Assembly: GCA_049287025.1 (NCBI GenBank)
Contig: JBAQFA010000022.1
Location: 30,225 to 94,224, forward strand
Source of the DNA: Candidatus Magasanikiibacteriota bacterium
GTDB taxonomy: Bacteria > Patescibacteriota > Patescibacteriia > Magasanikbacterales > UBA922
DNA: 64,000 bases
Reading direction: 5' to 3'
Below the pieces are notes generated by a model, which was given only the letters and a program-made list of their open reading frames with translations, did no database searches and was not told the origin of the DNA. Numbering within the stretch: the first letter of the stretch is position 1; each line of letters opens with the position of its first letter. The position numbers and the translations under genes are program-made. Positions 9,501-63,945 of the stretch are shown here, one piece after another.

Positions 9501-9593
9501 AATTACTTGACAAATTTTGTGATATGTTATAGCATAAGACGCTGTATCAGTGGGCCTTTAGTGTCACTTGGACAATAAACGGAGGTGAGGACC

Positions 9594-9990: not shown

Positions 9991-10082
9991 GCGAAGGAGA
10001 AGAGGAATGGTTTTTGTTTTATAAAAAAACTACATAGGGTGGTGCTTAGGGTTCCAGCAGAAAAAGAAAATCAATAATAAAA
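9991..10082. repeat. direct repeat copy 2
   Basis: see 9414-9500. Confidence 0.7.
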
Positions 10083-10106
10083 CCGACTATTGAGTCGGTT
10101 TTATTT
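10082..10106 (-). terminator. hairpin terminator aaaaccgactattgagtcggtttt
   Basis: 8-bp stem, T-rich on minus; near-identical copy at 10816. Confidence 0.55.
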
Positions 10107-10130
10107 GTCTTTTAATATGTTGTGGGGTTA

Positions 10131-10763: not shown

Positions 10764-10815
10764 ATCATTACATGATATTAAAATTTTTAAAAATAGTCAA
10801 ATAAAATTTTAGTAA

Positions 10816-10841
10816 AACCGACTGGTGGGTCGGTTTTATTT
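10816..10841 (-). terminator. hairpin terminator aaaaccgactggtgggtcggtttt
   Basis: repeat of 10082 hairpin. Confidence 0.55.
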
Positions 10842-10896
10842 GTCTATACTAGTGTTTAAAATCTCCTCCGGGGTTATGGGGTATTATTATTTGAAT

Positions 10897-15458: not shown

Positions 15459-16214
15459 ATGTTAAGTAAAAAAATAATCCAACACATCAACAAACTCGGT
15501 CAGAAAAAAGTTCGTCATGAAGAACATGAATTTATTATTGAAGGTATAAAGGGTATAAGTGAAGCTTTGGAATCTGACGCTAATATTCTTTTGTTGGTAG
15601 TAGAAGGTAATCGGCGCGATGAAAATGAATTTGTTGAATTAATTAAATTAGCAGAAAGACAACAAGTTTCAATAGAATTTTGTGGACGCAAAGAAGTGGA
15701 TGATATAAAAACGACTGATACTTTTCCTGGAGTTTTGGCAATTGTGGAGCAATCTGAGGTTGAGTTGAATGATTTAACAGGTAATATAATTTGCCTTGAT
15801 GGTGTCAAAGACCCGGGTAATCTTGGGACAATTATTCGTACCGCTGATTGGTTTGGTATAAAAAATATAATACTCGCCGAAGATTGTGTCGATCCATACA
15901 ATCCAAAAGTTGTACGCAGTACCATGGGTTCAATTTTTCGAGTAAATATTTTTGAGAGTGAGGGGATAGTGAGAGATTTGAGTTATTTACAAGAAGACGG
16001 ATATAAATTGAATGGTTTGGTGATGAACGGTGTTAATTTGGATAAACTTAAACCTGGGAATAAAGAAATTTATGTTTTAGGCAGTGAATCCCATGGTATC
16101 AGACCAGAGGTTGAAAAAATATTAGATAAAAAGTATACTATTTCTGGTTCTGGCTCGGCTGAATCTTTGAATGTTGCTGTCGCTTGTGGAATTTTATTGT
16201 CTCGTATATCCTGA
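15459..16214 (+). CDS. SpoU/TrmH family RNA 2'-O-methyltransferase
   Basis: C-terminal SPOUT motifs (LGSESHG, NVAVA). Confidence 0.7.
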   Translation: MLSKKIIQHINKLGQKKVRHEEHEFIIEGIKGISEALESDANILLLVVEGNRRDENEFVELIKLAERQQVSIEFCGRKEVDDIKTTDTFPGVLAIVEQSEVELNDLTGNIICLDGVKDPGNLGTIIRTADWFGIKNIILAEDCVDPYNPKVVRSTMGSIFRVNIFESEGIVRDLSYLQEDGYKLNGLVMNGVNLDKLKPGNKEIYVLGSESHGIRPEVEKILDKKYTISGSGSAESLNVAVACGILLSRIS

Positions 16215-16650
16215 ACGAAGTGAAGGATCTTTCGGAGCAATTTTGTGTGGTTTATAATATAAAATTGTAGTATGATCTGGAGGGAAAAAATTTATTATGT
16301 TTATATAATGGCTAGTATAAGTAGAGTTCTATATGTTGGTTATACTGATTCTATTATTAAAAGGGGTTTTCAACATAAGACAGGTTTTTTTGAAAATGCA
16401 TTTACTAAAAAATATAGAATAAATAAACTAGTATATTTTGAAACTAAAAATAGTAAAGAGATGTCTTTAATAAGAGAAAAACAAATAAAAGGATTACTTA
16501 GAAAAAAGAAAATACAAATGATTGAGGAGAGTAATCCAAATTGGGAAGATTTGTATAAAGTTATTATGTCTTTATATCAAGTAAAATAGTAATTTAAAGA
16601 GTAGTCTGGTTGACGTACAGATCCTTCGTCGCTGTGGCTCCTCAGGATTT
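16205..16650. mobile_element. family-A palindromic-element arms flanking a GIY-YIG gene (possible autonomous form)
   Basis: atcctgaacgaagtgaaggatct at 16205 and inverted agatccttcgtcgctgtggctcctcaggat at 16618. Confidence 0.35.
16272..16589 (+). CDS. GIY-YIG nuclease domain protein (about 105 aa)
   Basis: YVYIM..LYVGYT..R...H motif pattern. Confidence 0.65.
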   Translation: MIWREKIYYVYIMASISRVLYVGYTDSIIKRGFQHKTGFFENAFTKKYRINKLVYFETKNSKEMSLIREKQIKGLLRKKKIQMIEESNPNWEDLYKVIMSLYQVK

Positions 16651-26987: not shown

Positions 26988-27776
26988 TTAGTTAATAAAG
27001 TTTTTAATTATTTCTAATAATTTTTCTTTTGTCTGTAAGTGTAGACCGTGTCTGGCATTTTTAATTATTTCTAATTTTGAATTTTTGATTAGTCCATTCA
27101 ATTTGTAAGCATCAGACACTGGTAAATAACCATCCATAGTGCCCCAGACAATTAGAGTTGGTACAGTGATTTTACTGGCTTCCTCTCCCCTATCTTGGCG
27201 AATAATATTTTTAAAAATTTCCCGTTTTATGCCTGAAGTGTCATGGTAATCTTTAGCGCCAATGGCTTTGTGGAAAACATCCTCAGCCCAGAGCGAACCT
27301 TTTTCTATCCACGGAATTTTGAAAATTAGTTTGCCAAATTTTGCAGCAAAATTAAAAATTACTCGTCTAAAAGTTTTTTTTGGTCTAAATACTGCTGGAG
27401 CTACTAAAATTAACTTATCAATCATGTCTGGATATTTACTTGTAAATACAGTGGCGACTTGACCGCCGAAAGAGTGGCCTAACATCACTAATCCTGAGGA
27501 GTCCGCAGACGACGAAGGATCCTGTTGTATTTTCAATTCAATGTTGGATTCATTATCATCGAGATCTTTCGACTTCGTCTCAAGATTGTGTTTTACAAAT
27601 TCAACATAATCTTCTACTCCCCAAACAGTGTCAGGACATGGTTCATTACCAAAACAAGGTAATTCAATAATCTGAATATCAAAATCATTACTGGCTAATT
27701 CAGCAAATTCTTTCCACGTGGCTTTGTTTCCTCCCCAACCTGGCAAAATTATGAGTTGTTGTCTTGAATTATTCAT
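26988..27776 (-). CDS. alpha/beta hydrolase carrying in-frame palindromic-element insertion
   Basis: GHSFGG nucleophile elbow; insertion 27488-27580. Confidence 0.6.
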   Translation of the reverse strand: MNNSRQQLIILPGWGGNKATWKEFAELASNDFDIQIIELPCFGNEPCPDTVWGVEDYVEFVKHNLETKSKDLDDNESNIELKIQQDPSSSADSSGLVMLGHSFGGQVATVFTSKYPDMIDKLILVAPAVFRPKKTFRRVIFNFAAKFGKLIFKIPWIEKGSLWAEDVFHKAIGAKDYHDTSGIKREIFKNIIRQDRGEEASKITVPTLIVWGTMDGYLPVSDAYKLNGLIKNSKLEIIKNARHGLHLQTKEKLLEIIKNFIN

Positions 27777-42555: not shown

Positions 42556-42690
42556 ATCCCGAATCCTCCGATGAGGGATCCCTTTCCCATGCATTTAACA
42601 AGGGTATTATATATTAATATTGTAAGAAACTTGAAAAGGGATTTCCTCTTGGAGGATTTTCAACCTCATCCTAAAGAATTCGGAATTCAC
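42556..42690. repeat. palindromic element family A copy; 3' arm encodes helicase C-terminus and stop
   Basis: atcccgaatcctccgatgagggatccctttcc ... gaaaagggatttcctc...gaattcggaattcac; helicase ends EFRIL-TAG inside arm. Confidence 0.6.
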
Positions 42691-45600
42691 AAATTTCCTT
42701 AAAATCACAATACTGACAAACATGTTTATTTGGGGTAGCAATAAAATTATTGGTTTTAATTTGGTTGATTGTTTTAAGAATTTTTTCTTGTAATTTTTCC
42801 AAATCTTTATCTTCACCAATAAAAGAGGTTTTTAAATTATCATTAACATAATAAAAAGTCAGCTGGCCAACTGGACCAATGTTCCGATATTCAGGAAGAG
42901 TTTGAGCCGCAATTTGATAAATCAATAGTTGTTGTTTGTCTTCTGTTGTGAGAGTCTCTTTGGCTTTGCCAGTTTTATAGTCAATAATTTCTAAACTACC
43001 GTCCGCTACCTTGTCTATTCTATCAATTCTACCATGGACAATGTAATCCCCGACTTTAACCTTAAACCAACCCTCTAGAGATACTGGGATAGTCCAATTA
43101 TTTTGTTGGGAAGAATAAAAGATTTTCAAAATTTCTTTGCCTTTGGCAAAATATTTTTCTCGTTGTTCACGGCTATTGTACCAGTCTGGTGCCCAATTTT
43201 TTTCATACATTTGTAATAATTCATCTTGACTGGGTACTTTAATTTCTCCTGTATCTGGTTTTGTTTCTACAGGCAAACCAAACAACGAAGCTTGTTTTAC
43301 ACTATTCAACTCTTGAATTTTGGTATAAAAATCTTGCAGAGTATTATGGATGGTATTACCAAAACTAAAACTCGCACTGCCTTTCATGGGAATTTTTAAA
43401 ACATGGGCAAGTTTGTATTGATAAGGACAGCGTTCATAAGAACTGATTTGAGAAAAGGAAAATTTGTTAGGTGTTTCATAAATTAACTCCTCGCCTACCA
43501 GAGGAGGTTTAGGAGAGGTCATTTTTAAATCCAAAATTTGTTTTTTATCCAGGCCCCCTCCAACTCCCCCTTGTAGGGGGAGAGCTTCAGACAGTTCTGT
43601 TAAAAACCGACTAATTTTCTTTTTGCGTGTTCCACCATAATCCTCAGCGCTAGTTAAAAATAGTTTTTCTTTGGCTCTGGTACATGCTACATAAAATAAA
43701 CGTCTCTCCTCTTCATAATGAAAATCACTATTGGGTAAATTATCTTTGACTAGTTCATCAGGCAATTCCAAATTACCACCCTTTTTTCTAGTTGGGAATC
43801 TTTCTTCTACCAGATTTACCACAAAAACATATTTATATTCCAAACCTTTGGCGCCGTGAACGGTAATAATGTTCACTGAATCTGGTGTGTCTTCGGGTTG
43901 GTAAATTTTTCCACCATCACCCGAATCAATAATATTATTAAAATGTTCGACAAATTCAAGTACCTTACAATCAGGCGTGATTTGTTCAAATGTTTTTATT
44001 AAATCAAGAAGTTGTCTTAGATAATTAATTTGTCGAATAATTTCTCTATCACCATTATTTTCACCATGAGTCAGATAAGTTAGATAATCACTATTTTCTA
44101 AAAAATTATACAACACAGCAGTTGGCCTGTCATAACGCGCTTGCTTCATACCACTGTGAATTGTTTCCAAAATTTTACTAGCAATTTTTTGTCCGCCAGT
44201 AGAAATATCAAACTCTGATCCTCGCTTCAAAACTTCGTAATAACTAATAGATTTTTGTTTGGCTCTGGCGGTAATTTTTTGCATGTCATTTTCATCTATT
44301 GCCCAGGCTGGCATACGTAAAAGTCGGTACATGGCTCTATCATCATAAACATGGGTTAATAATTGAAAAAAAGCCAGGCAATTTAGCACAATTGGCTGTC
44401 TATATAGGCCAGATGAGGCCAAATACTCGTAAGGAATACTAGCCTGCTCTAAAGCCTGAATAAAGGGCTCTACGTGCGAATTAGCCCGGACTAAAATAGC
44501 AAAATCATCCCAAGACATTGATTCCACAGATTTGGATTTGATTTCACTGATTTTTTTTATTACAGCTTGGACTTCATCATCCAAAGTCTGACAATGAATG
44601 TGTTCTATTACGTTATTCTGAGGAGTCGAAGACGACGAAGAATCCCGTTGTTTATTGCTTGAACCACGGGATCCTTCGCTCCGCTCAGGATTATGCAATT
44701 TCTTGTCTATCTTTAATTTTACTTCCAGACGATCAGGATTATTATTTTGAATACTTTTATAACTTAGATCCAAAATTTCTTGAGCAGAACGATAATTTTC
44801 ATTCAAAACAATTTCTTTAGCATTTTTAAAATCTTCTTTAAAATGCATAATCACAGAAACGTTTGATCCGCGGAAACTGTAGATACTTTGATCATCATCC
44901 CCTACTACGGTTAGCTGACAATTCTGAGGCAAAGCCGAAGAATCCCGGTGTTTGTCGCTTGAACTACGGGATCCTTCGCTTTGTTCAGGATTAAGAGCCA
45001 ATAATTTAATTAATTGATACTGTGACCAATTCACATCTTGGAATTCATCTACTAAAATGTAAGTAAATCTTTCTTGCAAGGCTTTGAGAATATTTGGTCG
45101 ATCTTTTAATAATTTGACTGTATAAAAAATTAAATCGCCAAAATCCAAGTACCCGTTGTCCAAAAGTAATTGATTATAAGTATGGTAAGCGTTAGCTAGT
45201 TCGGTTTGGCGATTTTTTTCTTGAATGTTGGCTTCGTCTTTATCCATTTTTACATTTTCTACATATTCCAAATATTCAGTTGTAGAAACTAATTCATCTT
45301 TGGCTTTGGAAAAATGATTCAAAAGCGAATGAATCATAGACATGGGACTACCTAGTGGTCGATAATAATCTAGATTGAAATCATATAAATGTTTTTTTAC
45401 CAAGAGCCAAGCGTCAGTGTCAGTCATAAGTTTGAAACGCGCTGGCAAACCAATTTCCAAACCATATTCTTCAAGAATTTTTTGACAAAAAGCATGAAAA
45501 GTAGAAATTTGTAAATCGGTATAACCAATATCCAAAATATCATCTACTCTTTCTACCATTTCGCCAGCTGCCTTCTCGGTAAAAGTGAGAGCCAAAATAT

Positions 45601-45748
45601 TTTCTGGTTTGGCTAATTTTTGTTCAACTAAATAAGCAATCTTTTGCGTGATTACTGTGGTTTTGCCTGTACCAGCACCCGCTACTATCAATAGTGGTCC
45701 GGATGTGTGTTCTATGGCTTGTTTTTGTTGTTGGTTCAGATTGTACAT
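42671..45748 (-). CDS. UvrD/PcrA-like helicase fused to C-terminal PD-(D/E)XK (Cas4/AddB-type) nuclease
   Basis: AGAGTGKT Walker A; C-terminal Cys cluster C..CQYCDFKEIC; three in-frame repeat insertions. Confidence 0.8.
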   Translation of the reverse strand: MYNLNQQQKQAIEHTSGPLLIVAGAGTGKTTVITQKIAYLVEQKLAKPENILALTFTEKAAGEMVERVDDILDIGYTDLQISTFHAFCQKILEEYGLEIGLPARFKLMTDTDAWLLVKKHLYDFNLDYYRPLGSPMSMIHSLLNHFSKAKDELVSTTEYLEYVENVKMDKDEANIQEKNRQTELANAYHTYNQLLLDNGYLDFGDLIFYTVKLLKDRPNILKALQERFTYILVDEFQDVNWSQYQLIKLLALNPEQSEGSRSSSDKHRDSSALPQNCQLTVVGDDDQSIYSFRGSNVSVIMHFKEDFKNAKEIVLNENYRSAQEILDLSYKSIQNNNPDRLEVKLKIDKKLHNPERSEGSRGSSNKQRDSSSSSTPQNNVIEHIHCQTLDDEVQAVIKKISEIKSKSVESMSWDDFAILVRANSHVEPFIQALEQASIPYEYLASSGLYRQPIVLNCLAFFQLLTHVYDDRAMYRLLRMPAWAIDENDMQKITARAKQKSISYYEVLKRGSEFDISTGGQKIASKILETIHSGMKQARYDRPTAVLYNFLENSDYLTYLTHGENNGDREIIRQINYLRQLLDLIKTFEQITPDCKVLEFVEHFNNIIDSGDGGKIYQPEDTPDSVNIITVHGAKGLEYKYVFVVNLVEERFPTRKKGGNLELPDELVKDNLPNSDFHYEEERRLFYVACTRAKEKLFLTSAEDYGGTRKKKISRFLTELSEALPLQGGVGGGLDKKQILDLKMTSPKPPLVGEELIYETPNKFSFSQISSYERCPYQYKLAHVLKIPMKGSASFSFGNTIHNTLQDFYTKIQELNSVKQASLFGLPVETKPDTGEIKVPSQDELLQMYEKNWAPDWYNSREQREKYFAKGKEILKIFYSSQQNNWTIPVSLEGWFKVKVGDYIVHGRIDRIDKVADGSLEIIDYKTGKAKETLTTEDKQQLLIYQIAAQTLPEYRNIGPVGQLTFYYVNDNLKTSFIGEDKDLEKLQEKILKTINQIKTNNFIATPNKHVCQYCDFKEICEFRIL
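43565..43584. repeat. family B GC palindrome inserted in-frame in helicase
   Basis: ctcccccttgtagggggagag encodes LQGGVGG. Confidence 0.55.
44618..44696. repeat. compact family A element inserted in-frame in helicase
   Basis: tctgaggagtcgaagacgacgaagaatcccg ... gggatccttcgctccgctcaggat. Confidence 0.6.
44921..45000. repeat. second compact family A element in-frame in helicase
   Basis: ttctgaggcaaagccgaagaatcccgg ... gggatccttcgctttgttcaggat. Confidence 0.6.
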
Positions 45749-45753
45749 AATGT

Positions 45754-46524
45754 TTATACTCTATGTCCTAATGTTATCTGTGGAGCATTTATATTTTTTT
45801 CGATGTATACTATTGTCTTCATAATAGACCACCAACTACCATAAATATAGTTATCAGCATTTTCATATGTCCAACTATTAATCATTCCAACAAATTGATC
45901 ATCTATTTCTTCGTAGTCGGTCTGGTATTTTTCTTGTGATGATAGTAAACAGTATTTTTTGGTCAATGGTAGGTGTGCACCATCAGCAGGATTATCACAT
46001 GAAATGAAGTTGTCTCCATTAGAAATAAAAATCTTAAAGTTACTATTATACATTACATGCATGTGCACATCCATTAATGCAAACATACCAATTAGTCCCC
46101 CTTTTTTTATGTCTTTTTCTTTAAAACTATTTTCATTTATATTGTATTTATCTTGAAAATCATGGAGTTCCTGTGACATTCTTGTTGTATTTTTTATCTG
46201 TTTAGGTACACGTGAATATAGACTAGAATAGATACTTATAACTAATCCTTTAATTTTTTCAATTGGAGAACGATCCTCTATCATTTTAATAAGATTATTA
46301 TATAAATAATCTATTTTAGCAAAAAATTCGTCTTCAATTAAAGTTATGTTTGTCCCATTAATATTTTTGTAGCTGTAAAGATGTTTTTCTAGAGCATTAT
46401 CTTTAATGGATATTTCCGTCATTATTTTTAAATTTTTGTCAAATCTCCAAATAAAAATTTTATTAGGATCACTGGTAAAATGTTTTTGTATAACTTCAGG
46501 GATAAAATGGTGTCTTTTTTTCAT
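45754..46524 (-). CDS. hypothetical protein (DUF4238-like N-terminal HHFIP motif)
   Basis: KRHHFIPEVIQKHF resembles DUF4238 N-terminus; 5 bp upstream of helicase. Confidence 0.4.
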   Translation of the reverse strand: MKKRHHFIPEVIQKHFTSDPNKIFIWRFDKNLKIMTEISIKDNALEKHLYSYKNINGTNITLIEDEFFAKIDYLYNNLIKMIEDRSPIEKIKGLVISIYSSLYSRVPKQIKNTTRMSQELHDFQDKYNINENSFKEKDIKKGGLIGMFALMDVHMHVMYNSNFKIFISNGDNFISCDNPADGAHLPLTKKYCLLSSQEKYQTDYEEIDDQFVGMINSWTYENADNYIYGSWWSIMKTIVYIEKNINAPQITLGHRV

Positions 46525-46653
46525 TTAATATGTTTATTATTTCAAAGCAAACTTAATATATAGTATTTACACGATTAGGGAAAGAAAATTTATAATTCCT
46601 TTTTCATTTCAATAGTATTCCCATGATCTTTGGAGTGAACTATTTTAATTTTT

Positions 46654-47154
46654 TTAATTCCAATTTTTCCACTCAAAGCGTAAAATACTATAGATATAAT
46701 CATCCCAAAGTTTTCCATCTAATTCATGGTGTTCGCGCAACACTCCATCGCGGTGAAAGCCTAGATCTTTCAATATTTTCACCGATGGCTTGTTAAAAGA
46801 ACTAGTTTGACAATACAATTTATTAAAATCAAAATTTTTGAACAAATGATTAACGCAGTACCTTAACATTGTTTCACCATATCCTTGCCCTCTGTATTTT
46901 GGGTTAATTGTATAACCACATTCACATGATTTGTTGCGTTTATTTATACTAAAATAATTAAATTTTCCAATAGGTTCTTTTATGTTTTCTATAAAAAATG
47001 AAAATGTCAAAACTTGAGGATCAGCAAAAGCTTTTCCCTCTCTAATTTCACGACAAGTTATTTCTTCCATTCTGCCTTCCTGTTGCCATTTTTTGAATAG
47101 TTCTTTTTGTTTTTCTGTAGAGCGTTTAAGTTTCATATATAATAAGAACCACAA
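46654..47154 (-). CDS. GNAT N-acetyltransferase (RimJ/RimL-like)
   Basis: YRGQGYGETMLRYCVNHLF acetyl-CoA motif. Confidence 0.7.
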   Translation of the reverse strand: MWFLLYMKLKRSTEKQKELFKKWQQEGRMEEITCREIREGKAFADPQVLTFSFFIENIKEPIGKFNYFSINKRNKSCECGYTINPKYRGQGYGETMLRYCVNHLFKNFDFNKLYCQTSSFNKPSVKILKDLGFHRDGVLREHHELDGKLWDDYIYSILRFEWKNWN

Positions 47155-47197
47155 GGCCTTTAATATTTTTGTATTTTAGCACTATTTTGCAAAAAAG

Positions 47198-47225
47198 AAA
47201 ACGGGCTTTTACAGAGCTCCGTTTT
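47198..47225. terminator. hairpin aaaacgg...ccgtttt with T-run on minus strand
   Basis: 7-bp stem. Confidence 0.45.
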
Positions 47226-47398
47226 CTCGTAAGTTTTTATCTCGACAATGGTTAGCAACCGCATGCTCCACCGTCAAGCTTACTGTTGATCCTTTTGTTT
47301 CCCATAGGTAAAATATTAATAATTAATCCTCCTATATCTATATAATACATATTTAGTATGATATGTGTCAAGAGGTGGATAACTAAGTATAAAAAAAC

Positions 47399-49291: not shown

Positions 49292-50860
49292 TTATAAATC
49301 ATTACCAGAATATGATAAATTAAAACTTTTATTAATTAATGGAAAATCAGGTACAATATTACCAATACCTGCATATCCCAGTACAGACCAGTTGACAAAT
49401 GATGGATCACGAGGAAAAACCCTGTCAATCTCCCCTATTGAATTAGTTGTTACAAAATACATTATTTCTCCACGCCAACCTTCTACAGAACTAATGGCCA
49501 AAGAATTTTTTTCTAACTTATTAATTCCTTGACAAACAATTTTGCCCTTTGGCAATTTTTCTAAAGCTTTTTCAATGACCGCTATTGATGAACGTACCTC
49601 TTTCACTCGAACAAAAAATCTAGCGTAAGCATCACCATCTTGTTCAACAGGAACATCTCCAATAGAAAGTTCACTATAAGCTGCATAAGGAAAATCAATA
49701 CGAGTATCACGCGCAACTCCTAAAGCTCGACTCGGAACCCCCACTATTCCATGATCTACAGCAACATACGAAGGTAATTTTCCTGTGCCTTTTAAACGAT
49801 TTAAAAGTGAGACACTGTTTTCGGCAATGGCAATAATTTCAGAAAAATCTTTGTTTATTTTATTTAATTCAAGGGATAAAAATTTAATATTATTTTCATC
49901 TAAATCTTTTTTTACTCCACTAACAGTGTTTACTCCACGCAAAAATCTACTACCAGTTAATTTTTCATTAATCTGCATTACCATTTCTCGTAATCTCGCA
50001 CCATTACTTCCCCCAAAATTAAAACCAGTATCCAACATCATGGCACCAATATCACCAAAATGATTTGCCAATCTTTCTAATTCAGCAAAAATAACTCGTA
50101 AATAATTAGCTCTTTTTGGTACGACAGTATTACTCAGCTGCTCTACGGCCTGACAAAAAGCCAATGAGTGACTAAAAGAACTATCACCAGAAATTTTTTC
50201 TGAGAGTTTTATTTTTTCATCTAAAGATAATTGTTCAAATAATTTTTCACTGCCTTTGTGAACATATCCTAGACGTGATTCTAACAACAAAATTTCTTCG
50301 CCAGCTACACTAAAACGAAAATGACCTGGCTCAATAATACCAGCATGAATCGGACCAACAGGAATTTCGTAAACACCCTCGCCTTCTACTTTTTGAAATT
50401 TGTATAAGTCATTATGTGCATTGGCTGGCCTGTTATTCCAATCAAAATCTTTTCGCAAAGGAAACATGTTTGTTGGCCAATTTTCATGCAAAATTACAGG
50501 TCTTTCATCAGGATGTCCAATTGGCTTTAGACCAAAAAAAGTTTTAATTCTTCGTTCATAAATCCAGGCCTCATGCATAGTAGGAGCCAAGGCTGGGAAT
50601 TCTTCAGAATTTTTTAATACTATAAATGGAATAATAAAACATTTTTCTTCTGGTGATGCAAATACATACCATATTTTGTAACACCCATTTTCTTTTCGTT
50701 CATCTGTGGCAGTAATTAATTTTAAAGAAAGCTTTTCATTATCATGTAAGTCGTGGGCTAATTTGATAATTTCTGTCGTTGGTACTTCAAAAATTACCGT
50801 ATTATCAAAAGATGAAACTTTGGTATCTTTAGTAATATATTTTGTTAATATTTGGTTCAT
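49292..50860 (-). CDS. NuoC-NuoD-like fused large subunit lacking NiFe-ligand cysteines
   Basis: GPIHAGIIEPGHFRF..GEEIL; site aligned to RICGVCxxSH reads KISGDSSFSHSLA; C-terminus SFNLSYSGNDL vs DPCxSCTDR. Confidence 0.7.
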   Translation of the reverse strand: MNQILTKYITKDTKVSSFDNTVIFEVPTTEIIKLAHDLHDNEKLSLKLITATDERKENGCYKIWYVFASPEEKCFIIPFIVLKNSEEFPALAPTMHEAWIYERRIKTFFGLKPIGHPDERPVILHENWPTNMFPLRKDFDWNNRPANAHNDLYKFQKVEGEGVYEIPVGPIHAGIIEPGHFRFSVAGEEILLLESRLGYVHKGSEKLFEQLSLDEKIKLSEKISGDSSFSHSLAFCQAVEQLSNTVVPKRANYLRVIFAELERLANHFGDIGAMMLDTGFNFGGSNGARLREMVMQINEKLTGSRFLRGVNTVSGVKKDLDENNIKFLSLELNKINKDFSEIIAIAENSVSLLNRLKGTGKLPSYVAVDHGIVGVPSRALGVARDTRIDFPYAAYSELSIGDVPVEQDGDAYARFFVRVKEVRSSIAVIEKALEKLPKGKIVCQGINKLEKNSLAISSVEGWRGEIMYFVTTNSIGEIDRVFPRDPSFVNWSVLGYAGIGNIVPDFPLINKSFNLSYSGNDL

Positions 50861-50864
50861 AATA

Positions 50865-52304
50865 TTAATAAGTCAATGACACCATATTTATTAATTTTGA
50901 CAAAAATGGCGGGAGATAAAAACTTAGACAAAAAACTATAACTAATAATACCAATGGTGAAACAAGCAACCAACCACTAACTTCACCAACTGCTACATCA
51001 TCAGTTTTCTTTCCAAAAAACATTTTTGTGACATGTTTAAGAAATCCAACAAAAACTATCGTCGTAAAGATAATAACTAAAATAGTTACAATCGGATTAG
51101 TTTTTATACCAACAGATAAAATTAACATTTTGGAAAAAAATATACCAAACGGTGGCATTCCAGTTAGAATTAAAAAGCCAATTATAAATATTATACTGGT
51201 GAAAGGAACAACACTTAGCGCACCTTTAATTCTATTAATTTTTGATGAATTATATTTCAACAATAAATTACCAGAAGAAAAAAAGAGAATTGCTTTTATA
51301 CATGAGTGGTAAATTAAGTGAATAGTGGCAGCAAAACCACCCAAACCACCCAAACCAAAACCAAGTATAATTAACCCCGCATTCTCAATGCTTGAATATG
51401 CTAACAATCTTTTATAATTCTTGGCATTAAACATAATTAACGCTGGAATACCGATTGATAACATACCAAAAATAATTAACAAATTTTTACTAAATAAATT
51501 ACCCACAGCAATATCTGTAATAATCTTAAATTTCATTACAATAACAAAAGCTACTGGTAATAAGGCACCTGACAATAGCGCCCCAAGAGGTGCTGGTGCT
51601 TTACTGTAAGCATCTGGTTTCCAAGTGTGCATTGGCACCAATCCAATTTTGGTTCCATAACCAATGAGAATAAAAATAAAGGCAATCTTCCCTAACAGTG
51701 GATCAAGATGAATGGCATTATCTGCTAAAATTTGCCAGTTAATTAATCCAGTATTAGACAAATTAACTGAAGTAAAATATAAAAGGGTGCCAAAAAATCC
51801 CAAAATTAAACCAATGGAATTTATAATTAAATATTTCCACGCTCCTTCTATTGCCGAAGGCTTATTGTAAAAACTAATTAAAAAAGCAGTTGATAAAGTT
51901 GTGGCTTCAATTGAGATCCAGGCAAAAATTGGACTACTAGCTGTAATAGCCAAAAACATGGCCAAAAGAAAAATGTTTAGCAAAGTAAAAAATTGTTTGA
52001 CTCGATGAAATCCAATAATATTTTTTGCTGTTTCTTGATGAAAATATTGAATTGAGTAAATAGTAGTGACAAAACCAATTAGTCCAACAATTAGCATGGT
52101 AATTGCACTAAGAGCATCAACATAAAATATTCCGTATTGCATGTAGGATCCAATTTCTGCCACCTTAATAGCTACTATAATTGATCCAGTCAAGGTCACA
52201 CCTGAAGATAGTACGGAACAGGCTTCAACGCTACTTCGGTGTTTTATAAAAAAACAAATGGCAGAAGCTATAATAAGTGATATTAAAATGATAATAATTT
52301 CCAT
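50865..52304 (-). CDS. NuoN/NuoM/MrpD-like antiporter subunit
   Basis: HTWKPDAYSKAPAPLGALLSG motif, 14 TM. Confidence 0.7.
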   Translation of the reverse strand: MEIIIILISLIIASAICFFIKHRSSVEACSVLSSGVTLTGSIIVAIKVAEIGSYMQYGIFYVDALSAITMLIVGLIGFVTTIYSIQYFHQETAKNIIGFHRVKQFFTLLNIFLLAMFLAITASSPIFAWISIEATTLSTAFLISFYNKPSAIEGAWKYLIINSIGLILGFFGTLLYFTSVNLSNTGLINWQILADNAIHLDPLLGKIAFIFILIGYGTKIGLVPMHTWKPDAYSKAPAPLGALLSGALLPVAFVIVMKFKIITDIAVGNLFSKNLLIIFGMLSIGIPALIMFNAKNYKRLLAYSSIENAGLIILGFGLGGLGGFAATIHLIYHSCIKAILFFSSGNLLLKYNSSKINRIKGALSVVPFTSIIFIIGFLILTGMPPFGIFFSKMLILSVGIKTNPIVTILVIIFTTIVFVGFLKHVTKMFFGKKTDDVAVGEVSGWLLVSPLVLLVIVFCLSFYLPPFLSKLINMVSLTY

Positions 52305-52308
52305 AGAA

Positions 52309-52956
52309 TTAGTCTTTTAAATATTTCATCTCAGTCACGTCTAAAGAACCAAAATGTTTTTGTATCATACCAATAAATACTGTTGCAATAATAATCCAGA
52401 CGAAGATATCAAAAACAATTCCGATTTGTAAAATTGGTGATTGTTCTAAACCAGCAAAAAAACCAAAAGCCACAATACTATTTTCCAACGAAAGTACGGC
52501 AATAATTTGTGAAAGCGCTACTTTACAATTTACAATCAAAAACAATGAGATAAATATCGCTGATAATGCCAAATATAAAAGATGTTCGTTGGCAGGAATA
52601 ATATGAGCGAGTGATACAAATAATTTTGAGTGAGCAAAAGCAGTCAAAATTGTCACGGAAATAAGAGTAAGTGGCGTATTGACGTAAGTCGTAACTAAAA
52701 ATTTTAACTTGAATTTGTTAATTAAATTGATAAAGAAAGCCGGAGCTAAAATGACCTTTACCACCAGAACCAAACACGCTACAAAAAGTAATGACACTTT
52801 TCTTGTTTCCAAAAAAGAATTAATCAATAATAAAACAATGATTAGTGACTGCAGACTGTAAAGTACAGCCGTGGTAATATTTTTTTTGACAATATGTAAA
52901 GAGACTATTGTTATAAAAAATAATGTTAACAAAATTTGATTATAAAATGAGTTCAT
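52309..52956 (-). CDS. HyfE/EchA-like small membrane subunit
   Basis: 215-aa polytopic protein inside the cluster. Confidence 0.4.
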   Translation of the reverse strand: MNSFYNQILLTLFFITIVSLHIVKKNITTAVLYSLQSLIIVLLLINSFLETRKVSLLFVACLVLVVKVILAPAFFINLINKFKLKFLVTTYVNTPLTLISVTILTAFAHSKLFVSLAHIIPANEHLLYLALSAIFISLFLIVNCKVALSQIIAVLSLENSIVAFGFFAGLEQSPILQIGIVFDIFVWIIIATVFIGMIQKHFGSLDVTEMKYLKD

Positions 52957-53885
52957 AAATTACTTATTAATCCAAGCGCAATAATATTTAAGACAAAAGA
53001 AATAATCAATAAATCTGGCAAGCGAAAAAATCTATACTTTGCAATACTTGATTCAAGAATAGCAATTGCAAGATAAAAGATGGATATTTTTATTGCAAAA
53101 ATTATTAAACCTAAAAATAATGCTTTTAAATCTGCACTCTGAGCAATTCCCCAAGGGAAAAATAAATTCGCTCCTAGTGATATAAAAATTAACAGCTTAT
53201 TGGCAGAAGCCCATTCCATCAACGCTAATTTTTTTCCAGAATATTCCAATATCATGGCTTCATGAATCATGGTCAATTCCAAATGCGTGGCGGGATTATC
53301 AAACGGAAACCTGGCTGTTTCGGCCAATAACACTATAAAAAATCCAAAAAAGGCCAACAAAATTGATGAAAATGACTGACTATATGGAGAGACAATGTGA
53401 TTTGAAATATTAAATAAGTTTGTAGTATTGGCAACAATACTAATAGTCAATAAAGAAAAAATTAATCCCCCTTCTGCTAGAGCTGATATAGTCATTTCGC
53501 GACTTGATCCAAATCCACCAAATGCACTCCCACTATCCATACCTGATAACGCCAAAAAAAATGTTCCAATGGAGAGTAAATAGACAATTACCAATATATC
53601 ACTCGTAATGTTGTTAGAGAATAAACTTCCAAAAAGTGGAATACTAGCACCGACAATTATCGTCACGGTAAAAACAATAATCGGAGCGTAATGAAAAATC
53701 CAAGAAGCATCTTTACTAACAATCTCGTCTTTATGAAAAAGTTTGTATAAATCCCAATAAGGCTGAAAAATACTCGCTCCTTGTCGATTTTGCAGTTTGG
53801 CTTTTAATTTTTTTACCAAACCAACACCCAACGGCGAGAGTACTGGAACAAAAATACATTGAATTATCCAAATTACAATCATCAT
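52953..53885 (-). CDS. NuoH/HycD-like membrane subunit
   Basis: RFPFDNPATHLELTMIHEAMILEYSG motif. Confidence 0.7.
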   Translation of the reverse strand: MMIVIWIIQCIFVPVLSPLGVGLVKKLKAKLQNRQGASIFQPYWDLYKLFHKDEIVSKDASWIFHYAPIIVFTVTIIVGASIPLFGSLFSNNITSDILVIVYLLSIGTFFLALSGMDSGSAFGGFGSSREMTISALAEGGLIFSLLTISIVANTTNLFNISNHIVSPYSQSFSSILLAFFGFFIVLLAETARFPFDNPATHLELTMIHEAMILEYSGKKLALMEWASANKLLIFISLGANLFFPWGIAQSADLKALFLGLIIFAIKISIFYLAIAILESSIAKYRFFRLPDLLIISFVLNIIALGLISNL

Positions 53886-53888
53886 AAA

Positions 53889-55937: not shown

Positions 55938-55938
55938 A

Positions 55939-56481
55939 TTATTTTTTGGCTACAGATTTAGCGTCCAGTATTTCTAACAAATTTAATAAATGACAAATTA
56001 TCGTTTTCGGAGATGGTGGATTGCCTGGAATACAATAATCTACTGGTATTATATTGTCTACTCCATCAAAAGTGGCATAGGAACCCTTATATATTCCTCC
56101 ATTAATTGCATCATCGCCAACAGCTATAATAATTTTGGGGTTAGGGGTGGCATTGTAGGCTCTTCTTAAAGCCTCAGACATATTTCGCGTGACAGGTCCA
56201 GTGACCATCAACATATCAGCGTGCTTTGGAGACGCCACAAAATGAATACCAAAACGCTCCACATCATAAAAGGCATTGGAGAGTGCAACTAACTCCTGCT
56301 CGCAGGCGTTGTCCGAACCTGCGTCAACTTGTCTAATCGCCAACGACCCCTTAAATAATTTTTTTACATTATCTTGAATTTTTTTTCCTACAACATCCAA
56401 ATCTATTTTTTCACAATCAAAGTCACTTAGAGGAATAATATTATTGGAAGTAGAAAAAATTTTTAACAAAAGTTTCAGCAT
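55939..56481 (-). CDS. NuoB-like small subunit with N2-cluster cysteines replaced
   Basis: DAGSDNACE, GDDAINGG, IPGNPPSP in place of CCxxE, GxCxxxGG, GCPPRP. Confidence 0.7.
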   Translation of the reverse strand: MLKLLLKIFSTSNNIIPLSDFDCEKIDLDVVGKKIQDNVKKLFKGSLAIRQVDAGSDNACEQELVALSNAFYDVERFGIHFVASPKHADMLMVTGPVTRNMSEALRRAYNATPNPKIIIAVGDDAINGGIYKGSYATFDGVDNIIPVDYCIPGNPPSPKTIICHLLNLLEILDAKSVAKK

Positions 56482-56527
56482 ATTTTTAAAAGTATTTCAA
56501 TGTAATAAAAATATAACCATGCACACC

Positions 56528-57590: not shown

Positions 57591-58013
57591 TTATTTCACG
57601 TTTTTGTATTTCTTCGCCACTCTTACCCGATTCATTTCTCTATCAATCACAGCTTGCAAACGAGCAAAGTTAACATCCTCACCAGTTTTGGCTTTGGTCA
57701 TTTCTTCTTCGGCTCTAATTCTAGCTTGTTCAGCGCGATCAATATCAATCGCATCAGCTCTTTCTATATTATCAGCCAAGATAATTAATTCATTATTACC
57801 TTTTATTTCCAAGAAACCACCAGAGACAGCAAAAGGATGTTCACCATCTTTATCAACAATTTTTAATTCTCCAGCCTTAAGCACAGACACAAGTGGAATG
57901 TGATTTGGTAAAACTGTTATCTCACCAGACATAGTTGGAATAGAAACCTGAAAAATTTCATTTTCATAAACAACTTTTTCTGGAGTAGCGATTTTGAATT
58001 TGATTGTATTCAT
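57591..58013 (-). CDS. atpC: ATP synthase epsilon subunit
   Basis: position and size, beta-sandwich plus helical C-term. Confidence 0.8.
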   Translation of the reverse strand: MNTIKFKIATPEKVVYENEIFQVSIPTMSGEITVLPNHIPLVSVLKAGELKIVDKDGEHPFAVSGGFLEIKGNNELIILADNIERADAIDIDRAEQARIRAEEEMTKAKTGEDVNFARLQAVIDREMNRVRVAKKYKNVK

Positions 58014-58124
58014 AATCTCGAGCGAAGCGAGAGATCCCTTTTCTTTGGGTTTAACTTCGCTTTATTTTAAAAATTTTTTAATGTTTTGGAAAGGGATTCC
58101 TCATCCTTCGGGATTCGGAATGAA
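58014..58124. repeat. family A palindromic element (intercistronic atpD-atpC)
   Basis: about 90% identical to 62689-62795 copy; abuts atpD TAG. Confidence 0.7.
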
Positions 58125-59616
<1,492 letters not shown>

Positions 59617-60585: not shown

Positions 60586-60589
60586 ACAA

Positions 60590-60716
60590 ATTCATTCCGA
60601 GAGTAGCGAGGAATCTTTTTTACCTCTTACTTCTAGAAATAATAAATTAGTAATTTTAAATAATACTTTTTAGGAAAGATTCCTCACCCTCGCTTGAGCT
60701 CGAGTTCGGAATGAAC
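60590..60716. repeat. family A palindromic element (atpA-atpG)
   Basis: cattccgagagtagcgaggaatctttt ... aaagattcctcaccctcgcttgagctcgagttcggaatg; abuts atpA TAG. Confidence 0.7.
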
Positions 60717-62203: not shown

Positions 62204-62295
62204 AGAATAATAATTATATTTTTATATTAAATTAAAATTTTGATCACTGATCACTGTTTACTTTTATTGTTAATAATCAATGATCTGTGATCAAT

Positions 62296-62688
62296 TTATT
62301 GTAAGTGTTTACTAAGATTAATTAGCTGTGTTTTTAAACTCGCATCCAAAATTTTATCTTCTGTTTTTACTGCCACTCCACCAAGTAAATCTGTATCAAT
62401 AGTTTCAATCGCTTCTACCTGATTACCGAAAACTGATTTAATTTTTTCCAAAGTATTTTTGTCTAATTTTCTCGCTGACTTAACTTCTATTTCTATTACG
62501 CCAGCTTGTTTTTTGGCGTATTTTTCAAATTCTTTAATAATATTGTCAGACTGTTTTAATTTTTGATTGGCAACTAAAATAGCGACAAACTTTTTTAAAG
62601 CATTGTTTAATTCTCCACCTTTAAGCTCTTTTGTACTATCATACAGAGCTTCAGCGTATTGTTTGTTTGAAATTTTCTTTTTTGACAT
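62296..62688 (-). CDS. atpH: ATP synthase delta (OSCP) subunit, short
   Basis: position; C-terminal LLGG pattern. Confidence 0.65.
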   Translation of the reverse strand: MSKKKISNKQYAEALYDSTKELKGGELNNALKKFVAILVANQKLKQSDNIIKEFEKYAKKQAGVIEIEVKSARKLDKNTLEKIKSVFGNQVEAIETIDTDLLGGVAVKTEDKILDASLKTQLINLSKHLQ

Positions 62689-62795
62689 AATCTCGAGCGA
62701 AGCGAGAGATCCCTTTTCATTGGGTTTAACTTCGCTTTATTTTAAATGTTGTTTAATGTGTTGGAAAGGGATTCCTCACTCCGTTCGGAATGAAC
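62689..62795. repeat. family A palindromic element (atpF-atpH); 3' arm encodes last 7 codons and TGA of atpF
   Basis: ttcggaatgaacg rc encodes IRSFRTE-stop. Confidence 0.7.
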
Positions 62796-63375
62796 GAATT
62801 GTTTCTTCAATCAAAGTGACATCTTTTTTGTCATCCAATTTTTCATTCATTATTTTTTCCACAGCCGCAATAATAAGATTAACAGTTTCTTTCTTAATTT
62901 CAGTCATCATACTTTCTTTTTCTATTTGGATATTTCGTTTGGCCTGATCAACCAACATCTCAATTTCTTTCTTGGCTTTTTCTTTCATGTCAACAGACAA
63001 TTTTTCTGCCTCAGTGTGTGATTTTTCAATTATTTTATTGGCTTCCACTTTCGCTTGATCCAATTTTTCTTGAAATTTCACTTCACTCATTTGCAAATTA
63101 GTTTCCACTGCCTTAGCATTATCAATGCTGTCGTCAATTATTTTTTTACGTTCTTCCATGGTCTTCGTCAATGGTTTTAAAATCAAAAACCAAACAATCG
63201 CACCAACAATGGCAAAGTTTAATAATTGAAAACCAAATAATTGAGCATTGATACCAAGTGAGGCTGCAACACCCTCATTTTTTGGAGCAACGGTAGTGTG
63301 TTCTGCGGTGGTAGCTTCAACATTTGTTTCTTCTACAGCTTCAGAAGAGGCGTAAGCATTTTCTATTAAAAACAT
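62776..63375 (-). CDS. atpF: ATP synthase b subunit
   Basis: N-terminal TM plus long helix. Confidence 0.7.
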   Translation of the reverse strand: MFLIENAYASSEAVEETNVEATTAEHTTVAPKNEGVAASLGINAQLFGFQLLNFAIVGAIVWFLILKPLTKTMEERKKIIDDSIDNAKAVETNLQMSEVKFQEKLDQAKVEANKIIEKSHTEAEKLSVDMKEKAKKEIEMLVDQAKRNIQIEKESMMTEIKKETVNLIIAAVEKIMNEKLDDKKDVTLIEETIRSFRTE

Positions 63376-63805: not shown

Positions 63806-63945
63806 CACACTGTCATCCTGAGCGACAGCGAAGGATCTTTCTTATCTCGGATTTATTTAATTCATAATTTATTGAAATAAATATGCCTGTGGTAAGAAAG
63901 ATTCCTCGTCATCTCTTTCAGGATTTCTCGGAATGACAGAAAAAC
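63806..63945. repeat. family A palindromic element (atpB-atpE)
   Basis: ctgtcatcctgagcgacagcgaaggatctttctta ... taagaaagattcctcgtcatctctttcaggatttctcggaatgacag. Confidence 0.7.

What the first reader, a model, noticed from the sequence alone, without database searches (positions are those of the whole stretch)
42556..45000. Family A elements contribute coding sequence: helicase C-terminus encoded by an element arm and two in-frame 75-78-bp copies inside the same gene
The helicase-nuclease ends ...CEFRIL-TAG, with EFRIL-stop lying inside the 3' arm of the 42556-42690 copy. Compact copies at 44618-44696 and 44921-45000 (arm, 20-nt loop, arm) are inserted in-frame. They encode Ser/Asp/Arg-rich loops, NPEQSEGSRSSSDKHRDSSALPQ and NPERSEGSRGSSNKQRDSSSSSTPQ, without disrupting the ORF. 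This parallels Rickettsia palindromic elements, which tolerate in-frame insertion into proteins.
Basis: partly seen in the sequence, partly recalled or inferred. Interest (0 to 1): 0.6.

Follow-up and report, generated by a model that had tools for sequence, protein, structure and literature searches.

The report
Palindromic repeats inserted in-frame in helicase
A DNA-repair helicase gene of an uncultivated Candidatus Magasanikbacteria (CPR) bacterium carries two recent in-frame copies of a hairpin repeat that add disordered surface loops; the repeat belongs to the already described Ssn-nuclease/"CGTC-REP"/Rickettsia-palindromic-element kind, so this is a new example rather than a new phenomenon.

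Summary
The 1025-aa UvrD/PD-(D/E)XK helicase-nuclease gene (42671-45748, minus strand) contains two 72-78-nt palindromic copies, at 44615-44692 and 44921-44992. Both are in frame and encode the quoted peptides.

Orthologue alignments show both are lineage-specific. A 92%-identical sister has only site 1, and a 79% relative has neither. A second pair of 90%-identical sisters each has one site filled.

AlphaFold places both inserts in disordered loops (pLDDT <50). They fall in alignment gaps against PcrA.

The claim that the arm encodes the C-terminus is half right. The last codons co-vary with the presence of the element. The peptide they give (FRIL) is still essentially the ancestral FRQL.

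The element is not a local oddity:
- Its arms match a consensus (GTCATCCTGAGCGAAGCGAAGGATCC…) found in more than 10 phyla.
- A copy at 16205-16650 carries a small GIY-YIG nuclease gene in its loop. Four of five fetched homologues are flanked in the same way.

This matches the published Ssn/SRM system (2025) and CGTC-tagged REP dimers (2013). Those repeats were already reported inside UvrD/Rep and RecB genes, and REP termini were reported to supply stop codons.

Verdict: real, well explained, and a new member of a known kind.

The parts
42671..45748 (-). Host gene: UvrD-type helicase fused to a PD-(D/E)XK nuclease, 1025 aa.
   Evidence: ORF list and translation. Pfam UvrD-helicase 5e-77, UvrD_C 2e-45, PDDEXK_1 2e-37. 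A 100%-identical protein is annotated from a Candidatus Magasanikbacteria MAG.
44921..44992 (-). In-frame palindromic copy, site 1. Encodes aa 253-275 (NPEQSEGSRSSSDKHRDSSALPQ), between helicase motif II (DEFQD) and motif III (VGDDDQSIY).
   Evidence: Repeat family D13; inverted repeat; hairpin z = -4.46. An arm HMM built only from other phyla hits both arms. Present in P0001, P0002 and P0004; absent in P0003, P0005 and most others. pLDDT <50 at residues 259-275. Falls in a gap against PcrA.
44615..44692 (-). In-frame palindromic copy, site 2. Encodes aa 353-377 (NPERSEGSRGSSNKQRDSSSSSTPQ), at the junction of domains 1A and 2A.
   Evidence: as for site 1. Both arms are 24/25 and 31/33 identical to the cross-phylum consensus. 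Absent from the 92%-identical orthologue, where it corresponds to a gap of about 63 nt. A related copy sits at the same loop in P0005/L004. pLDDT <50 at residues 357-376.
42556..42690 (.). Degenerate long-loop copy between the helicase and the next gene. Its outer stem overlaps the last five codons and the stop codon of the helicase (42671-42688).
   Evidence: Inverted repeats I1 and I2. The fold has an outer 13-bp stem that includes EFRIL; z = -2.5. Absent from the sister genome L001, where homology breaks exactly at GAATT|. An arm remnant occupies the same place in L003. Similarity to the family is only weak (z = 2-3.8).
27491..27590 (-). Third, decayed in-frame copy, inside the alpha/beta-hydrolase ORF 26988..27776. 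Encodes about 22 extra aa just before the GHSFGG nucleophile elbow.
   Evidence: blastn to copy 1, 35 nt at 89%. Arm HMM E = 1e-4. The insert is absent from the 12 closest representative homologues. Hairpin potential is lost, z = -0.3.
16205..16650 (+). Gene-carrying copy, the putative autonomous form. The arms TATCCTGAACGAAGTGAAGGATC… and …GATCCTTCGTCGCTGTGGCTCCTCAGGATT flank a 105-aa GIY-YIG nuclease ORF (16272..16589). The TGA inside the left arm is the stop codon of the SpoU methylase ORF 15459..16214.
   Evidence: Arm HMM hits at 16208-16229 (+) and 16648-16620 (-); sequence. Pfam GIY-YIG E = 1.6e-7 and SpoU_methylase. In four of five fetched homologue loci the gene lies between inverted arms; in L128 only a 3' arm was seen.
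58011..58124 (-). Long-loop copy inside the ATP synthase operon, between atpD (stop at 58125) and atpC. The atpC start codon (58011-58013) abuts the element end …GAGATT|ATG.
   Evidence: Family D2. The arms are related to the canonical consensus, z = 9-10 with 0 of 300 shuffles as good. Conserved at the same place in L001, absent in L005. Pfam identifies the flanking genes.
62686..62797 (-). Long-loop copy between atpF and atpH. It encodes the last residues (RSFRTE) and the stop codon of atpF, and abuts the atpH start codon.
   Evidence: Family D2, 95% identical to the 58011 copy. Arms z = 5.7-8.9. The atpF tail differs in element-free L004, which ends IEDMK*.
63810..63937 (+). Canonical intergenic long-loop copy: TGTCATCCTGAGCGACAGCGAAGGATC … CTCGGAATGACAG.
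   Evidence: Best hit of the other-phyla arm HMM in the window, E = 1.8e-6. Sequence. Hairpin z = -3.7.

Best explanation
The two segments are head-to-head dimers of a hairpin repeat: two inverted arms around a spacer of about 20 nt. They inserted into the helicase gene recently. They persist because they fell in the one reading frame and orientation without stop codons, and in two flexible surface loops where about 24 extra Ser/Arg/Asp-rich residues do no harm.

They belong to a very widespread palindromic repeat family with termini GTCAT…/…ATGAC and arm core GAGCGAAGCGAAGGATCC. The gene-carrying form of this family holds a small single-domain GIY-YIG nuclease in its loop. One such copy lies at 16205-16650 in this window.

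This is the architecture published for Ssn nucleases and their flanking Ssn-related hairpin motifs, and for CGTC-tagged REP dimers. The short copies are most likely non-autonomous derivatives. They would be spread in trans through single-stranded DNA cleavage next to the hairpin, followed by repair or recombination.

Copies landing at gene borders can overwrite the last codons, as in atpF and the helicase tail. They can supply a stop codon, as for the SpoU methylase. They can also abut start codons, as for atpC and atpH.

Shown here:
- repeat identity and in-frame state;
- lineage-specific presence and absence;
- location in disordered loops;
- membership of the cross-phylum family;
- association with the GIY-YIG gene.

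Inferred, not shown:
- that the GIY-YIG protein mobilises the short copies;
- the insertion mechanism;
- that the loops are translated and neutral.
For: **Repeat and hairpin.**

**Lineage-specific insertion.**
- Alignments of 120 orthologues.
- DNA alignments with the syntenic sister genome L001. Site 2 is a clean gap of about 63 nt. Site 1 is shared at 91% identity, with indels of 3 and 6 nt only.
- Two independent sister pairs differ in which sites are filled: P0001/P0002 at 92% identity and P0004/P0005 at 90%.

**Permissive loops.**
- pLDDT <50 at residues 259-275 and 357-376.
- Alignment gaps against PcrA 1PJR.
- 9 of 120 orthologues carry inserts of 12 aa or more at site 2. Several have peptide signatures of other repeat subfamilies and reading frames, such as VILSEAKNP…RDPSAAPQDD and …SRLRGND….

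**Family membership.**
- A genome-collection scan with the inner stem alone returned more than 119 loci in over 10 phyla. In most of them, the outer stems, which were not part of the pattern, are also conserved: CATCCTGA-like upstream in 85, TCAGRATGA-like downstream in 104, both in 74 of 123 elements.
- An HMM built from those foreign arms finds all four in-gene arms in the window at E = 1e-5 to 8e-4.

**Nuclease association.**
- Pfam GIY-YIG for ORF 16272..16589.
- 43 small homologues were found.
- In 4 of 5 fetched loci (L126, L127, L129, L130) the gene lies between inverted arms with GTCAT/ATGAC-type termini.
- In the fifth locus, L128, only a 3' arm was seen. It matches the published NTS consensus.

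**Literature.**
- Ssn/SRM (PMC11893778).
- Intragenic REP dimers encoding 20-30 aa, including in UvrD/Rep and RecB, and REP termini that provide stop codons (PMC3733652).
Against: - There is no direct evidence of mobility. I could not define target-site duplications.
- Filling of the same sites in separate lineages could reflect recombination between lineages rather than independent insertion.
- The published degenerate SRM search pattern has 0 matches in the window, and the canonical arm of this family fails it.
- Assignment of the window's GIY-YIG protein to the Ssn family (CDD cd10448) is indirect. It rests on 49% identity to P0139, whose gene has a canonical NTS on its 3' side. NCBIfam gave no hit.
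- The scans of viral contigs (general stem pattern) and of JGI metagenome contigs (subfamily-specific pattern) were almost empty: 0 hits and 1 hit.
- The 42556 copy is only weakly similar to the family.
- No transcript or peptide data show that the inserts are translated.
Confidence: 0.8

Rival explanations
1. The segments are ordinary low-complexity or linker expansions of the helicase, or gene conversion between two loops. They would not derive from a dispersed repeat.
For: The peptides are Ser/Arg/Asp-rich and predicted to be disordered. A protein-level search with the peptides found almost nothing.
Against: - Both arms match a consensus built from other phyla.
- Related copies occur in another gene and in intergenic DNA of the same window.
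- Hairpin potential is far above shuffles.
- Presence differs between 90-92%-identical sisters.
Confidence: 0.03
2. The inserts are selected, functional additions to the helicase-nuclease, for example regulatory or interaction loops. Their recurrence at the same two loops would then reflect adaptive exaptation rather than tolerance.
For: - The same two loops are filled independently in two clades.
- Reading frame is kept through 3- and 6-nt indels.
- DNA-repair genes are over-represented among REP-decorated genes in the literature (PMC3733652).
Against: - Sister lineages and most orthologues do without the inserts.
- Different repeat subfamilies and reading frames give unrelated peptides at the same loop.
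- The inserts have very low model confidence.
- The hydrolase copy is decaying.
Confidence: 0.1
3. The copies are spread by a different enzyme, such as a RAYT/IS200-type Y1 transposase or another transposase, or by template switching at hairpins. The GIY-YIG gene would then be merely cargo that landed in one copy.
For: - REPs of the GTAG class use RAYTs.
- CGTC REPs were described as lacking a dedicated transposase (PMC3733652).
Against: - GIY-YIG homologues sit between inverted arms in 4 of 5 independent loci, with arm sequences that differ from lineage to lineage. A fifth locus has a canonical NTS on one side, and two loci hold two GIY-YIG genes each.
- The published Ssn proteins cut ssDNA next to their own flanking hairpins (PMC11893778).
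- I did not come across a transposase gene in the ORFs I scanned. This covered only 10 ORFs.
Confidence: 0.12

Closest known systems
Ssn single-stranded-DNA nucleases with flanking Ssn-related motifs (SRM; the NTS/dRS3 repeats of Neisseria). Chenal et al., Nat Commun 2025, PMC11893778.
   Same: - A small (about 95-110 aa) single-domain GIY-YIG gene is flanked on both sides by inverted hairpin repeats that begin (C)GTCAT.
- The same repeats are dispersed in many gene-less copies.
- Distribution spans many phyla.
- One homologue of the window protein, P0139, has on its 3' side a repeat that fits the published NTS consensus and the SRM pattern.
   Different: - The arms here (GTCATCCTGAGCGAAGCGAAGGATCC) do not fit the published SRM search pattern.
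- The two arms also pair with each other over about 28 nt to make one long hairpin.
- Copies here sit inside genes. NTS repeats are reported to be rarely intragenic (2%).
- The host is a CPR bacterium.
- No nuclease activity was tested here.
CGTC-tagged REP repeats and REP dimers, including intragenic ones. Di Nocera et al., BMC Genomics 2013, PMC3733652.
   Same: - Short palindromic repeats with a (C)GTC tag, often arranged as dimers.
- Intragenic dimers encode 20-30 aa.
- Insertions are reported in UvrD/Rep helicase, recBCD and uvrA/B.
- Repeat termini are reported to supply stop codons, and two inserts in one gene are described.
   Different: - That survey covered cultivated Proteobacteria, Opitutus, Rickettsia and similar organisms, not CPR.
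- It found no dedicated enzyme for CGTC repeats.
- The arm sequence here is a different subfamily.
Rickettsia palindromic elements (RPE). RPE-1 is inserted in frame in many genes. RPE-4 and RPE-6 were equated with CGTC-4 and CGTC-1 in PMC3733652.
   Same: - Palindromic repeats inserted in frame in unrelated genes.
- They are tolerated as extra surface segments.
- Presence differs between close relatives.
   Different: - RPE-1 is longer (about 100-150 bp) and has an unrelated sequence.
- I did not compare sequences with any RPE. The link is through the literature only.

Membership tests
Ssn nuclease / SRM hairpin-repeat system (PMC11893778) | A small single-domain GIY-YIG protein (about 94 aa; CDD family cd10448). 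| tested here: inconclusive
   ORF 16272..16589 is 105 aa with one Pfam GIY-YIG domain and nothing else. Its homologues are 80-158 aa, most of them 92-128 aa. CDD cd10448 could not be queried. NCBIfam gives no hit. The link is 49% identity (E = 3e-20) to P0139, whose gene has a canonical NTS on its 3' side.
Ssn nuclease / SRM hairpin-repeat system (PMC11893778) | The gene is flanked 5' and 3' by hairpin repeats (repeat-gene-repeat architecture). | tested here: met
   The window copy has arms at 16208-16229 and 16620-16648. Of the five fetched homologue loci, L126, L127, L129 and L130 have inverted arms on both sides. L128 has an arm on one side only.
Ssn nuclease / SRM hairpin-repeat system (PMC11893778) | The repeats fit the degenerate SRM pattern HGTCWYN(0-2)YYVSBRHN(0-5)WNVSBRGN(0-2)RNCYNB. 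| tested here: not met
   The pattern has 0 matches in the window on either strand. The canonical arm TGTCATCCTGAGCGAAGCGAAGGATCCCGT fails it. The NTS consensus and the L128 flank pass. The arms share the GTCAT tag and the layout GTCAT-stem-loop-stem-ATC, but with a longer loop.
Ssn nuclease / SRM hairpin-repeat system (PMC11893778) | The protein cuts single-stranded DNA next to its own repeat. | not testable with these tools
   This needs purified protein and oligonucleotides.
CGTC-tagged REP / REP dimers (PMC3733652) | A short palindromic repeat with an unpaired CGTC-type tag at one end, present in many copies, often as dimers. | tested here: inconclusive
   Many cross-phylum copies read (C/T)GTCAT at the end and occur as inverted dimers. 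Here, though, GTCAT pairs with ATGAC of the other arm. The in-gene copies have AAT/ATA in place of GTC. I did not compare them with the published CGTC-1 to CGTC-4 consensus sequences.
Rickettsia palindromic elements (in-frame palindromic insertions) | In-frame insertion in unrelated genes, absent from orthologues, in tolerated surface positions. | tested here: met
   Helicase, two sites, and the hydrolase. Loops are disordered. This is behaviour only: sequence relatedness to RPEs was not tested.
Intein or intron (considered and rejected) | Self-splicing domain or ribozyme; Hint/LAGLIDADG domains or intron structure. | tested here: not met
   The inserts are 72-78 nt and 23-25 aa with no domain. 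Rfam finds nothing there. For contrast, orthologue P0027 has a real 363-aa intein at motif III.

The most novel reading that the evidence does not exclude
One repeat subfamily, GTCATCCTGAGCGAAGCGAAGGATCC…CTCAGRATGAC, is conserved almost base for base across more than 10 bacterial phyla. It escapes the published SRM search pattern. It may be an actively and promiscuously spreading element driven by an Ssn-type nuclease.

In CPR bacteria it may home repeatedly into the same few positions of core genes. Here those are two loops and the 3' end of the helicase-nuclease. Gains appear to be independent in two sister pairs. This would mean real target specificity rather than mere tolerance.

It would also be a route by which a selfish hairpin rewrites gene ends: stop codons, C-terminal tails and start-codon contexts in the ATP synthase operon.
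Probability: 0.2. Interest if true: 0.6.

Novelty: new member of a known kind. Interest (0 to 1): 0.35.

Why it matters
- It extends in-frame palindromic-repeat insertion, known from Rickettsia and some Proteobacteria, to the Candidate Phyla Radiation.
- It ties those insertions to the recently described Ssn nuclease/hairpin system.
- It gives a tidy natural experiment for studying gain and loss of such elements: two sister pairs, three sites, all combinations filled or empty.
- There is a practical consequence for annotation. Many odd 20-30-aa segments, odd C-termini and 'hypothetical' ORFs in CPR proteins are probably translated hairpin repeats. Examples are …HPERSEGS…, …VILSEAK… and …RDSS…PQND….
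- Published SRM search patterns miss this abundant subfamily.

Tried and rejected
- **Protein search with the insert peptides** (after two rejected calls, 41 and 42). Only 1 weak hit, presumably because of composition filtering. It gave no list of other host proteins and cost one search.
- **Metagenome scan with a subfamily-specific 33-nt pattern**. One hit, another copy of the P0005-type helicase.
- **Viral contig scan with the general stem pattern**. No hits, so there is no support for phage carriage.
- **Rfam**. No family matches the element. The only hit above threshold in the window is a TPP riboswitch.
- **Literature searches by raw DNA or peptide strings**. Only noise.
- **L004's 23S-rRNA-IVS-protein gene between atpD and atpC.** I checked whether it is cargo of the same element. 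Its flanks are different direct repeats, so I dropped the idea.
- **The idea that Ile in the tail 'FRIL' marks the element**. L131 has …YRIL with different codons and no element. Only the codon string TTC CGA ATT CT co-varies with the element.
- **Target-site duplications.** I looked for them at filled versus empty sites. AAT occurs at both ends, but it is also part of the arm consensus, so no conclusion is possible.
- **Intein or intron origin.** Rejected; see the membership test.
Full report
**1. The observation**

The region lies in one long minus-strand ORF, 42671..45748, of 1025 aa. Pfam gives UvrD-helicase, UvrD_C and a C-terminal PD-(D/E)XK nuclease domain. An identical protein is on record from a Candidatus Magasanikbacteria (CPR/Patescibacteria) MAG. 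The window has 33.7% G+C.

The two internal copies are real.
- They match each other over 58 nt at 88% identity (D13; blastn E = 4e-12).
- Each is an inverted repeat around a short loop.
- Each folds far better than shuffled sequence: z = -4.46, with 0 of 200 shuffles folding as well.
- My borders are 44615-44692 and 44921-44992.
- The encoded peptides are exactly those quoted.
- The gene ends …CEFRIL-TAG, and those codons lie in the outer stem of the 42556-42690 palindrome.

**2. Are they lineage-specific insertions?**

Yes. Among the 120 best orthologues, most are 975-990 aa and lack both segments.
- Site 1 lies between motif II (DEFQD) and motif III (VGDDDQSIY). It is filled in P0001, in its 92%-identical sister P0002 and in P0004. 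It is empty in P0003 (79% identical) and in P0005.
- Site 2 follows …KIDKKL, at the junction of domains 1A and 2A. It is filled in P0001 and P0005. It is empty in P0002, P0003 and P0004.
- P0004 and P0005 are 90% identical to each other and only 71% identical to P0001. So two separate sister pairs each differ in which sites are filled.

DNA alignment with the syntenic sister contig L001 agrees.
- Site 2 is a clean gap of about 63 nt.
- Site 1 is shared at 91% identity, with indels of 3 and 6 nt only. This fits selection to keep the reading frame.

**3. Where in the protein?**

An AlphaFold2 model built on 63 orthologues has mean pLDDT 78. Confidence is below 50 at residues 259-275 and 357-376, which are the two inserts. 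Each lies between a helix and the next strand.

Against PcrA (1PJR), both inserts fall in alignment gaps.

Site 2 is a hotspot. Nine of 120 orthologues have inserts of 12 aa or more there. Several carry peptide signatures of other hairpin-repeat subfamilies or reading frames, for example VILSEAKNPS…RDPSAAPQDD and …LDSRLRGNDN….

**4. The C-terminus claim**

…ICEFR(Q/K/I)L is conserved across orthologues. The tail is therefore not new protein sequence. The DNA tells a subtler story.
- The window and L001 are identical for 43 nt up to TGTGAATT and then diverge completely. The window reads TTC CGA ATT CTT TAG followed by the element. L001 reads TTT AGA CAA TTG TGA and has no element.
- L003 has a remnant arm directly after the stop codon (…TAAGAAGTGAGGAATCCCTTTT). 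It shares the codons TTC CGA ATT CTG.
- Element-free L004 and L005 share TTT AGA CAA. L131 has TAT AGA ATT TTA.
- The string ATTCCGAAT…AGGATGAGG…AATCCC is the arm consensus seen at the other intergenic copies.

I conclude that the last four codons and the stop are most likely arm-derived DNA that re-encodes the ancestral tail with one Q-to-I change. The claim is partly supported.

Clearer examples of the same effect occur elsewhere in the window.
- The atpF tail RSFRTE* is arm-encoded, whereas element-free L004 ends IEDMK*.
- The TGA stop of the SpoU methylase ORF lies inside the arm motif ATCCTGA.
- The atpC and atpH start codons abut the element end …GAGATT|ATG.

**5. What the element is**

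The taxa named in the record titles are:
- Verrucomicrobiota, Clostridia, Acidobacteriota and Actinomycetota (Gordonibacter);
- Chloroflexota, Delta- and Gammaproteobacteria, Nitrospinota and Armatimonadota;
- several CPR groups.

The flanks outside the pattern are conserved too. This gives the consensus gTCATCCTGAGCGaAGCGAAGGATCCCG-loop-CGGGATTCTTCGtCGCTtCGCTCCTCAGAATGACa. In 74 of 123 elements both outer motifs are present.

The in-gene copies are 24/25 and 31/33 identical to this consensus. An HMM built only from the foreign arms found, in the window:
- all four in-gene arms;
- the hydrolase copy;
- a canonical intergenic copy at 63810-63937;
- a pair of arms at 16208 and 16648.

The 42556 copy is related only weakly.

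**6. The gene-carrying copy**

The arm pair at 16205-16650 encloses a 105-aa ORF with a GIY-YIG domain (Pfam E = 1.6e-7). It has 43 small homologues, mostly from CPR.

I fetched five homologue loci of very different G+C content. In four of them the gene lies between inverted arms with GTCAT…/…ATGAC-type termini, and the arm sequences differ by lineage. In the fifth, L128, only a 3' arm was seen. Two of the loci hold two GIY-YIG genes each.

**7. Comparison with what is known**

This is the architecture of Ssn nucleases and their Ssn-related hairpin motifs (PMC11893778).
- Those are small single-domain GIY-YIG proteins that cut single-stranded DNA next to the hairpin repeats flanking their own genes.
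- The same repeats are dispersed in hundreds of copies.
- The authors note the similarity to insertion sequences and to REP/RAYT systems.
- L128's flank fits their NTS consensus and SRM pattern. The arms of the present subfamily do not, and the window has 0 matches.

An earlier survey of GTAG- and CGTC-tagged REPs (PMC3733652) had already reported:
- intragenic REP dimers encoding 20-30 aa;
- double insertions in a single gene;
- insertions in UvrD/Rep helicase and recBCD;
- REP termini providing stop codons.

It also equated Rickettsia RPE-4 and RPE-6 with CGTC families.

**8. Mechanism**

Shown:
- repeat identity and hairpin potential;
- in-frame state;
- recent gain or loss;
- location in disordered loops;
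- association with GIY-YIG genes.

Inferred:
- The short copies are non-autonomous derivatives mobilised in trans by the Ssn-like nuclease through a single-stranded intermediate.
- Survival inside genes is a filter. Only the two open frames of the palindrome, and only permissive loops, are seen.
- Repeated filling of the same sites reflects that filter plus frequent insertion.

Real target preference, or transfer of filled alleles by recombination, cannot be excluded. I could not define target-site duplications.

**9. Verdict**

The feature is a new member, in a new phylum, of an already described kind. Interest is moderate to low. The most interesting residue is the very wide distribution of this one subfamily, together with the recurrent hits at identical positions.

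Noticed in passing
Genome-contig loci L006-L124 (e.g. L012 492-560, L039 6192-6470, L019 3046-3110): One palindromic repeat subfamily is conserved almost base for base in more than 10 phyla. Its consensus is GTCATCCTGAGCGAAGCGAAGGATCCCG-loop-CGGGATTCTTCGTCGCTTCGCTCCTCAGAATGAC, with loops specific to each genome. Some genomes hold many copies, for example Gordonibacter, Chthoniobacter and rabbit-gut Clostridia. It does not fit the published SRM search pattern.
   Followed up: partly
window 16272-16589 (+), with arms at 16205-16232 and 16618-16650: A small GIY-YIG nuclease gene sits in the loop of a palindromic element. The left arm supplies the TGA stop codon of the upstream SpoU rRNA methylase ORF (15459..16214).
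   Followed up: yes
window 57591-63375 (ATP synthase operon): Two 95%-identical long-loop copies sit inside the atp operon, between atpD and atpC and between atpF and atpH, in the same orientation. Both are conserved in the sister genome L001. They would be transcribed within the polycistronic mRNA and could affect its stability or translational coupling.
   Followed up: partly
helicase orthologues P0014, P0016, P0024, P0028, P0047, P0048, P0076, P0078, P0111, P0114, P0119: Many Magasanikbacteria orthologues carry other in-frame inserts of 15-40 aa, at several positions. Their peptide signatures are typical of translated hairpin repeats: VIASEAKQS…APRND, VILSEAKNP…PQDD, …SRLRGNDN…, GLPSVA…. 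In-frame repeat insertion appears to be common in this lineage.
   Followed up: partly
orthologue P0027 (1373 aa): It carries a 363-aa insert right after VGDDDQ (motif III), with precomputed Hint (PF01079) and intein-splicing (PF14890) Pfam domains. This is a true intein in the same helicase family.
   Followed up: no
window 49292-56500, compared with L001: About 7 kb, eight ORFs on the minus strand, has no counterpart at this position in the otherwise syntenic sister contig. The stretch 45754-47316 (DUF4238 protein and a GNAT acetyltransferase) is also non-homologous to L001 8023-10010. These look like variable islands next to the helicase.
   Followed up: no
L004 5800-6240: A 23S-rRNA-intervening-sequence protein gene (PF05635) is inserted between atpD and atpC, at the position where the window has a palindromic copy. 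Its flanks are different short direct repeats (…aaggcc…aagctttt…).
   Followed up: partly
window 454-553 (+): TPP riboswitch (Rfam RF00059, 67.8 bits, E = 3.6e-11).
   Followed up: no
window 9432-9502 / 10012-10082, 10075-10110 / 10810-10845, 6897-6939 / 7585-7627: Other short repeat families unrelated to the finding. These include terminator-like hairpins (AAAACCGACT…AGTCGGTTTT) and AAAAAAACTCC(C/A)(C/T)AGGGT(G/T)G motifs next to small minus-strand ORFs.
   Followed up: no
L001 13031-13105: In the sister genome, the spacer after the helicase holds a different small inverted repeat (TAATTGGAATTAGGGAG…CTCTAGTCCTAATTCC) where the window has the palindromic element.
   Followed up: no
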